DNA from: Flavobacteriales bacterium
Lineage (GTDB): Bacteria > Bacteroidota > Bacteroidia > Palsa-965
Direction: 5' to 3'
Assembly: GCA_040377305.1 (NCBI GenBank)
Contig: JBEIPA010000002.1
Span: 128,001-192,000, forward strand
Length of the DNA stretch: 64,000 bases
This document shows positions 29,130 to 29,639 of this stretch, piece after piece. The translations under genes were made by a program, and so were the position numbers. The notes under the pieces were generated by a model. It searched no databases. It worked only from the letters and a program-made list of their open reading frames with translations, and was not told where the DNA came from. Within the stretch, counting starts at the first letter, position 1, and each line of letters begins with the position of its first letter.

Positions 29130-29639
29130 TCATTTCGTATATAATTCTGTCCTAACCGCGTCGCGGAAACTATTTCCACGATTGCGATAATTGTCAAACG
29201 CGTCATAACTCGGACAACCCGGTGCGAACAAAACCGACTTCGCATTGTTCCTGCTCAGTGTGTGTGCAGTTTTCACTGCTTCCTGGATATAAGTTGCACG
29301 GACAATAAGGTGAGCGCTCCCGCTAAAAGCCTCTACATATTTCCATGGCGTTGTTCCTAAACAAACAACTGCTGCAACCTTCTCCTTTATTAAACCACTG
29401 AGCTTGTACTGATCGCTTGCACGATCTGTACCGCCAATTATCAGCACCACCGGACCTTGTACATCGCGTAGTGCCAACCAGGCGAGATCAGTTGTCGTTG
29501 CCATAGAATGATTGATCCATGCAACTCCATCCTTCTCACACACCGTTTCAAAACAGTGCGATTCGTCGCCCTGCATTTTGAGACGTGCATTGATCAGCTC
29601 TTGCTGTTGTGAAAGTGTTTGATCGGTGGTTAAGTACAT
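29130..29639 (-). CDS. Stand-alone degenerate paralogue of the MurD C-terminal domain
   Basis: Aligns by eye to the last ~160 aa of the adjacent MurD: HCFE/HRLE, WINHSMATT/WVNDSKATN, IGGTDR/VGGVDK, VVCLG/IVCLG, LFAPGCPSYDAFDNYRNRGNSF/LLSPACASFDLFENYEDRGRQF. Confidence 0.85.
   Translation of the reverse strand: MYLTTDQTLSQQQELINARLKMQGDESHCFETVCEKDGVAWINHSMATTTDLAWLALRDVQGPVVLIIGGTDRASDQYKLSGLIKEKVAAVVCLGTTPWKYVEAFSGSAHLIVRATYIQEAVKTAHTLSRNNAKSVLFAPGCPSYDAFDNYRNRGNSFRDAVRTELYTK

What the first reader, a model, noticed from the sequence alone, without database searches (positions are those of the whole stretch)
29130..29639. Stand-alone MurD C-terminal domain gene inside the dcw operon
Seen: an intact 169-aa ORF tightly spaced between murD and ftsW that matches only MurD domain 3 and is strongly diverged from its neighbour. 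Known (E. coli MurD numbering): R302 and D317 contact the nucleotide; T321, K348, S415 and F422 contact D-Glu. By eye the nucleotide contacts are lost here (HR to HC, ND to NH, also K319 to M), while D-Glu positions are kept or conservative (T, R, S, Y). There is no P-loop domain. Inference: a non-catalytic D-Glu/muropeptide-binding or Mur-ligase regulatory module rather than a decaying duplicate, possibly co-occurring with the extended FtsZ.
Basis: partly seen in the sequence, partly recalled or inferred. Interest (0 to 1): 0.72.

Follow-up and report, generated by a model that had tools for sequence, protein, structure and literature searches.

The report
Free-standing MurD tail-domain gene family
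Between the cell-wall genes murD and ftsW lies a small, intact, selected gene that copies only the last domain of the enzyme MurD; it cannot be a ligase and is likely an undescribed helper protein of the cell-wall and division machinery, carried by many mostly uncultured Bacteroidia.

Summary
A 169-aa ORF (29130-29639, minus strand) copies MurD domain 3 plus the preceding helix and has no P-loop. It is not a decaying duplicate. It is present in 29 of 29 genomes of the order and in 20 of 81 Bacteroidia family codes. It was not found in 113 genomes of other classes. dN/dS to the closest relative is 0.08, and its tree follows the dcw tree. (1) 'Nucleotide contacts lost, D-Glu contacts kept' fits only this lineage. 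Family-wide the D-Glu lysine K348 is among the most eroded sites (21% kept), while R302 and D317 are mostly kept. (2) Long FtsZ is confined to two genera; 45 other carriers have a normal FtsZ. Where the dcw cluster has broken apart, the gene stays with ftsW, not murD or murG. My best reading is a non-catalytic partner protein, most likely of the FtsW complex. That is inferred: no binding or expression data were obtained. Eight literature searches found no description. This scan has already noted the same family in at least 8 other genomes.

The parts
29130..29639 (-). Stand-alone MurD domain-3 paralogue, 169 aa (called X in this report)
29571..29627 (-). Predicted N-terminal helix (aa 5-23). 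Remnant of the last helix of MurD domain 2, carrying the motif L-I-x-A-R; placed with low confidence in the model
   Evidence: H5-23; pLDDT 56-64 over aa 1-30; R19 invariant in 95 of 95
29148..29558 (-). Domain-3 core (aa 28-164). E31, N43 and P140 are invariant in 85 of 85 family members
29659..30993 (-). murD, intact 444-aa ligase and parent of the duplicate
   Evidence: (TIGR01087 416.8 bits)
27933..29105 (-). ftsW, the neighbour that X keeps when the cluster breaks

Best explanation
X is an old, vertically inherited, selected copy of MurD's last domain with no catalytic domains, and it likely works as a non-catalytic partner protein of the cell-wall/division machinery, most likely of the FtsW complex. 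Shown: anatomy, distribution, purifying selection, vertical descent, linkage to ftsW, and no substrate pocket kept across the family. Inferred: one tandem duplication of the murD 3' end within Bacteroidia. Also inferred: the copy kept its fold, the H301-E304/N316-S318 face, the 410-426 loop and an N-terminal helix as binding surfaces, and it would tune or localise the link between Mur precursor synthesis and septal wall synthesis. It is accessory, because some lineages have lost it cleanly.
For: Present in 29 of 29 genomes of the order and in 85 sequences from 20 family codes, 155-191 aa long. dN/dS is 0.078 to the closest relative and below 1 in 23 of 23 scored pairs. All 19 well-supported splits of the X tree occur in the dcw tree, and its rate (tree length 33.2) is like FtsQ's (34.5). 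X lies within 301 nt of ftsW in 75 of 76 loci. In family f45 (3 genomes, one complete), mraY-murD, X-ftsW and murG lie at three separate places: G151 at about 155 kb, 2282 kb and 289 kb. In G371, 4.6 kb of other genes separate murD from X, while X abuts ftsW. Neither ligand site is kept family-wide. An N-terminal hydrophobic-Arg helix motif is kept in 51 of 85 members against 3.7 in shuffles (pattern chosen after seeing the alignment). Mur ligases were reported to interact with FtsW, FtsQ and FtsZ in a mycobacterial assay (PMC3605390, passages), and with MurG and MreB scaffolds (PMC4929429, passages).
Against: The ftsW linkage rests on two independent events (f45 and G371) and could come from a promoter upstream of or inside X. 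In G090 an insertion also separates X from ftsW. Rate covariation of X with FtsW is only 0.12 (p 0.29), against FtsW-FtsZ 0.40 and MurG-MurC 0.65 as controls. Nine extra copies in f4, f45 and f49 lie away from any dcw gene yet are still selected (dN/dS 0.05-0.16 in the 11 of 13 pairs that were not saturated). The surface that faces MurD domain 2 is the best kept, which fits MurD as partner just as well.
Confidence: 0.4

Rival explanations
1. X binds MurD in trans. It docks on domain 2 while MurD's own mobile domain 3 is open and so inhibits or tunes D-Glu ligation.
For: The residues that face the nucleotide and domain 2 are among the better kept: H301 93%, D317 89%, S318 94%, R302 71%, R425 97%, against a median of 64% for 30 MurD-invariant polar sites. 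X lies within 200 nt of murD in 72 of 74 loci. Domain 3 is MurD's most flexible domain (PMC9780078, passages).
Against: X leaves murD in f45 and G371. Its rate does not covary with MurD domain 3 (0.08) and is negative with domains 1-2 (-0.26, p 0.016 uncorrected). R302 and D317 are lost throughout the own genus. MurD domain 3 is about equally alike between carriers and non-carriers of one genus (87-94% versus 90-100%).
Confidence: 0.27
2. X is a small-molecule sensor for D-Glu, a muropeptide or a nucleotide.
For: The own family keeps T321, K/R348, S415 and Y422 in 27 of 30 members. S415 (88%) and an aromatic residue at 422 (95%) are kept family-wide. A MurD-C domain also occurs fused to an Mrr-type nuclease in one unrelated contig.
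Against: K348, the salt bridge to the D-Glu alpha-carboxylate, is kept in only 15 of 85 members and is replaced by D, E, N, S, Q and others. 24 of 85 keep neither site. In MurD these pockets are completed by domains 1-2 (established knowledge).
Confidence: 0.15
3. X is an exchangeable specificity domain that works with MurD domains 1-2, in trans or through read-through or frameshift, to add a different amino acid at stem position 2.
For: The fold is kept and the alpha-carboxylate pocket is altered.
Against: The gaps from the murD stop to the X start fall evenly in all three frames (26/24/22). The adjacent MurD keeps all catalytic domain-3 residues in 82-83 of 83 carriers. The K348 replacements are heterogeneous, as expected from relaxed selection.
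Confidence: 0.05
4. The DNA is kept as a cis element (promoter or translational coupling for ftsW), or it is a slowly decaying duplicate, and the protein is incidental.
For: Tight ftsW linkage. Clean losses: 8 of 14 genomes of one genus have a single match, and in the 3 loci read murD abuts ftsW. It evolves three times faster than MurD domain 3.
Against: dN/dS is far below 1, the frames are open and of narrow length in 85 sequences, and core residues are invariant. The promoter scan is at chance level (4 sites against 2.2 +/- 1.6) and does not cover Bacteroidota promoters.
Confidence: 0.08

Closest known systems
[quoted passage not shown]
   Same: Fold (Foldseek best hits are all MurD), 40% identity to the adjacent MurD, and the H-x-x-E, N-x-S and SP-x-C-x-S...RG motifs
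   Different: No N-terminal UMA-binding domain and no P-loop domain. It is a separate gene of 155-191 aa, substrate residues are variably lost, and it evolves about three times faster
Mur-ligase / MurG / MreB / FtsW 'enzyme cluster' interactions (PMC4929429, PMC3605390; passages read)
   Same: Precedent that Mur-ligase folds contact scaffold and division proteins
   Different: Those reports concern full-length active ligases; no free-standing domain is mentioned in the passages seen
Catalytically dead enzyme paralogues used as regulators (pseudoenzymes; general concept, recalled, from no call)
   Same: A duplicate kept under selection after losing catalysis
   Different: Here whole catalytic domains are missing rather than single residues, and no Mur-ligase example was found in the searches

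Membership tests
MurD ligase (TIGR01087) | Three domains, including the P-loop domain (Mur_ligase_M) and the N-terminal UMA-binding domain | tested here: not met
   Only PF02875 hits; TIGR01087 108.6 bits against a cut-off of 211.95, positions 286-440 only
MurD ligase (TIGR01087) | ADP contacts R302 and D317 | tested here: not met
   C29 and H44 in this protein; both kept in 34 of 85 family members
MurD ligase (TIGR01087) | D-Glu contacts T321, K348, S415, F422 | tested here: inconclusive
   T, R, S, Y here (conservative); all four kept in only 32 of 85; binding not measured
Mur_ligase_C domain (PF02875) fold | MurD domain-3 alpha/beta fold | tested here: met
   Model pLDDT 86.9; Foldseek E 2.4e-9 to MurD; 66 of 68 members hit PF02875 at E<=0.001, though this one is under the gathering score
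Pseudogene / decaying duplicate | Frame breaks, patchy presence in kin, dN/dS near 1 | tested here: not met
   29 of 29 genomes; dN/dS 0.078; open frames of 155-191 aa
Divisome / FtsW accessory protein | Physical binding to FtsW or mid-cell localisation | not testable with these tools
Divisome / FtsW accessory protein | Rate covariation with FtsW | tested here: inconclusive
   Spearman 0.12, p 0.29; FtsZ 0.26, p 0.015 uncorrected over 8 tests

The most novel reading that the evidence does not exclude
X is an unrecognised member of the dcw cluster: a MurD-derived adaptor that docks on the cytoplasmic face of FtsW and couples precursor supply to septal wall synthesis. It would expose a second, non-catalytic role of MurD domain 3 that may exist in all bacteria but has been split onto its own gene in about a quarter of Bacteroidia families.
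Probability: 0.2. Interest if true: 0.8.

Novelty: new variant of a known kind. Interest (0 to 1): 0.52.

Why it matters
The dcw cluster is among the most conserved gene clusters in bacteria, and its parts are thought to be known. A selected extra gene at a fixed slot in 20 of 81 sampled Bacteroidia family codes points to an unstudied layer of control over cell-wall precursor synthesis or division. Databases label it 'hypothetical protein' or mislabel it MurD. A small, soluble, well-folded domain makes the open question of how Mur ligases couple to FtsW/MurG directly testable. Its weight is limited: the gene is dispensable in some lineages, every named carrier seen here is a metagenome-assembled genome, and the partner is not shown.

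Tried and rejected
Complex prediction (MurD + FtsW + X) was not available; nothing was folded, so there is no verdict on binding. RNA runs: no RNA holder was listed, which is no evidence either way. Co-occurrence with long FtsZ: rejected. Read-through or frameshift fusion with murD: rejected. Rate covariation with eight dcw partners: inconclusive. Sub-functionalisation visible in MurD: not seen in the one genus with carriers and non-carriers. Promoter scan: chance level. The scan of named genomes was swamped by MurD: 5 of 80 loci held X, all titled Flavobacteriales MAGs, and no cultured carrier was identified. The Atlas search, run with a homologue (P0125), returned short clusters automatically named MurD-family and no new function. 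Second matches in G238, G393, G382, G444, G510 and G517 were checked and set aside as contig splits or weak non-X hits. The careful tree did not finish. The quick 156-row tree placed the f39/f76 copies among MurDs; the 55-row tree put all 25 X on one branch with support 86. A single origin is therefore allowed but not shown. Literature searches listed no paper describing such a gene, judged from titles and abstract starts. Most subscription papers and all supplements were not searched.

Full report
Observation. The window holds a Bacteroidia dcw cluster on the minus strand (rsmH, ftsL, ftsI, murE, mraY, murD, X, ftsW, murG, murC, ftsQ, ftsA, ftsZ). X is an ATG-started 169-aa ORF at 29130-29639, 19 nt after murD and 24 nt before ftsW. 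It is 40% identical to MurD residues 308-443 and hits only Mur_ligase_C, under the gathering score. The genome holds no other copy besides murD itself. The model is confident for the core and weak for residues 1-30, which form a helix, and it matches MurD chains best.

Distribution. All 29 genomes searched in the order have two or more matches (G003 is split over two contigs). A protein search gave 98 close homologues of 92-184 aa, labelled hypothetical or MurD. In a draw of 401 genomes of the class, about 104 have two or more matches to MurD domain 3 (counted by eye). I set aside 3 of these as contig splits or a weak hit, which leaves about 101 genomes in 20 of 81 family codes. I fetched 100 loci and, with earlier loci, extracted 85 X proteins from those 20 families (155-191 aa) and 9 extra copies lying away from the cluster. 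None was found in 113 genomes of other classes of the phylum; three second matches there were contig splits or vanished with the profile. Names given by sources for carriers are Flavobacteriales, Salibacteraceae and unclassified Bacteroidia MAGs. Among 80 named loci, 5 held X; in 74 of the other 75 (Polaribacter, Pedobacter, Chitinophagaceae, Bacteroidales and others) murD is followed directly by ftsW. Within one genus (f21), 6 of 14 genomes have X, and the 3 non-carrier loci read show a clean loss. The gene is therefore accessory. G012 (one row, two dN/dS pairs), G120 and G196 (tally only) are unpublished genomes; no conclusion depends on them.

Selection and descent. By Nei-Gojobori counting, dN/dS is 0.078 between this gene and its closest relative. 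It is 0.07-0.33 in 12 pairs within the genus (10 of them 0.17 or less) and below 1 in all 23 same-family pairs with pS under 0.62 (range 0.013-0.80); dS is near saturation in many pairs. On 58 genomes, all 19 strongly supported splits of the X tree occur in the dcw tree, and X evolves at FtsQ's rate, three times that of MurD domain 3. A 55-row tree puts all 25 X on one side of a branch with support 86. The 156-row quick tree placed the 7 copies of f39/f76 among MurDs. One old duplication is the simplest account, but it is not shown.

What is conserved. E304, N316 and P411 (E. coli numbering) are invariant in 85 of 85. H301, S318, R425 and G426 are kept at over 90%. Family-weighted retention is R302 71%, D317 89%, K319 61%, T321 66%, S415 88% and K348 21%, the third lowest of 30 MurD-invariant polar sites. 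32 of 85 keep the four D-Glu positions (27 in the own family), 34 keep both nucleotide contacts, 5 keep both sets and 24 neither. Kin are not independent in these counts. An N-terminal hydrophobic-Arg motif inherited from MurD's last domain-2 helix survives in 51 of 85 members against 3.7 in shuffles (pattern chosen after seeing the data), although X has no domain 2 to pack it on. The adjacent MurD keeps its catalytic residues in 82-83 of 83 carriers.

Which partner. X lies within 301 nt of ftsW in 75 of 76 loci and within 200 nt of murD in 72 of 74, with no fixed frame relative to murD. In family f45 the cluster is broken. In the complete genome G151, rsmH-to-murD lies at about 147-155 kb, murG at 289 kb, and X-ftsW as a two-gene unit at 2282 kb; that ftsW is the best PF01098 hit in all three genomes. 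In G371, 4.6 kb separate murD from X, which abuts ftsW; in G090 there are insertions on both sides. These are two independent events, and promoter position could explain them. Rate covariation did not single out a partner (FtsW 0.12, FtsZ 0.26, MurD domains 1-2 -0.26; none holds after correction for 8 tests). Nine dispersed copies are selected without dcw neighbours. Published passages report Mur ligases contacting FtsW, FtsQ and FtsZ (PMC3605390) and MurG and MreB (PMC4929429). I put a divisome/FtsW partner at 0.40, a trans-regulator of MurD at 0.27, a ligand sensor at 0.15, an incidental protein at 0.08 and an exchangeable specificity domain at 0.05. Binding and expression remain open.

FtsZ. 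The N-terminal extension is real but separate. It is 92-339 residues in 13 genomes of the own genus (473 here), 53 in two genomes of a sister genus, and 16-43 in all 45 other carriers scored (one more could not be scored). X is far older and more widespread than the extension.

Known or new. It fails membership of MurD, has the Mur_ligase_C fold, and is not a pseudogene. Eight full-text searches listed no paper on it; I saw listings for these and passages of three papers, and no supplements. The scan's own notes hold 8 earlier reports of the same family in other genomes. These are AI notes, not independent evidence, and my reading was written down before I saw them. Verdict: a real, undescribed accessory gene family of the Bacteroidia dcw cluster, a new variant of a known kind, interest 0.52.

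Noticed in passing
window 20200-23238 (-): FtsZ of 1012 aa with a 473-residue acidic N-terminal extension (23% D/E). Extensions of 53-339 aa occur in 15 genomes of two genera. They share a first motif (MD-x-Y-x-[IM]-F) and all keep the ancestral internal Met (M-K/T-F-D/E-L/I-P), so two FtsZ isoforms are possible.
   Followed up: partly
L232:4001-4960 (+), protein P0226: A MurD domain-3 copy fused to an Mrr-type restriction-nuclease domain (PF04471, E 2e-23), free-standing near a resolvase-like gene on a metagenome contig; a single record. P0166 is another single-record fusion of this domain to an unknown C-terminal domain.
   Followed up: partly
L093, L095, L097-L103: Third, more divergent copies in families f4, f45 and f49, away from the dcw cluster and under purifying selection. 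In six of the nine loci the convergent neighbour is an aldehyde-dehydrogenase-like gene (identified by eye).
   Followed up: partly
L080-L085 (family f39): Here X keeps nearly all MurD motifs and is closer to this window's MurD domain 3 (58-62%) than the genomes' own MurD is (52-61%). For one pair dN/dS is 0.017 for X against 0.175 for MurD domain 3.
   Followed up: partly
G151:C1 (L057, L092, L214, L228): The dcw cluster is broken into at least three distant pieces in family f45, which is unusual for Bacteroidia.
   Followed up: partly
window 29508-29558 (-): In the own genus H28, H/C29 and H44 replace the nucleotide contacts and could form a metal site. D317 to H/N arose in at least three families (f1, f10, f27). 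Speculative.
   Followed up: no
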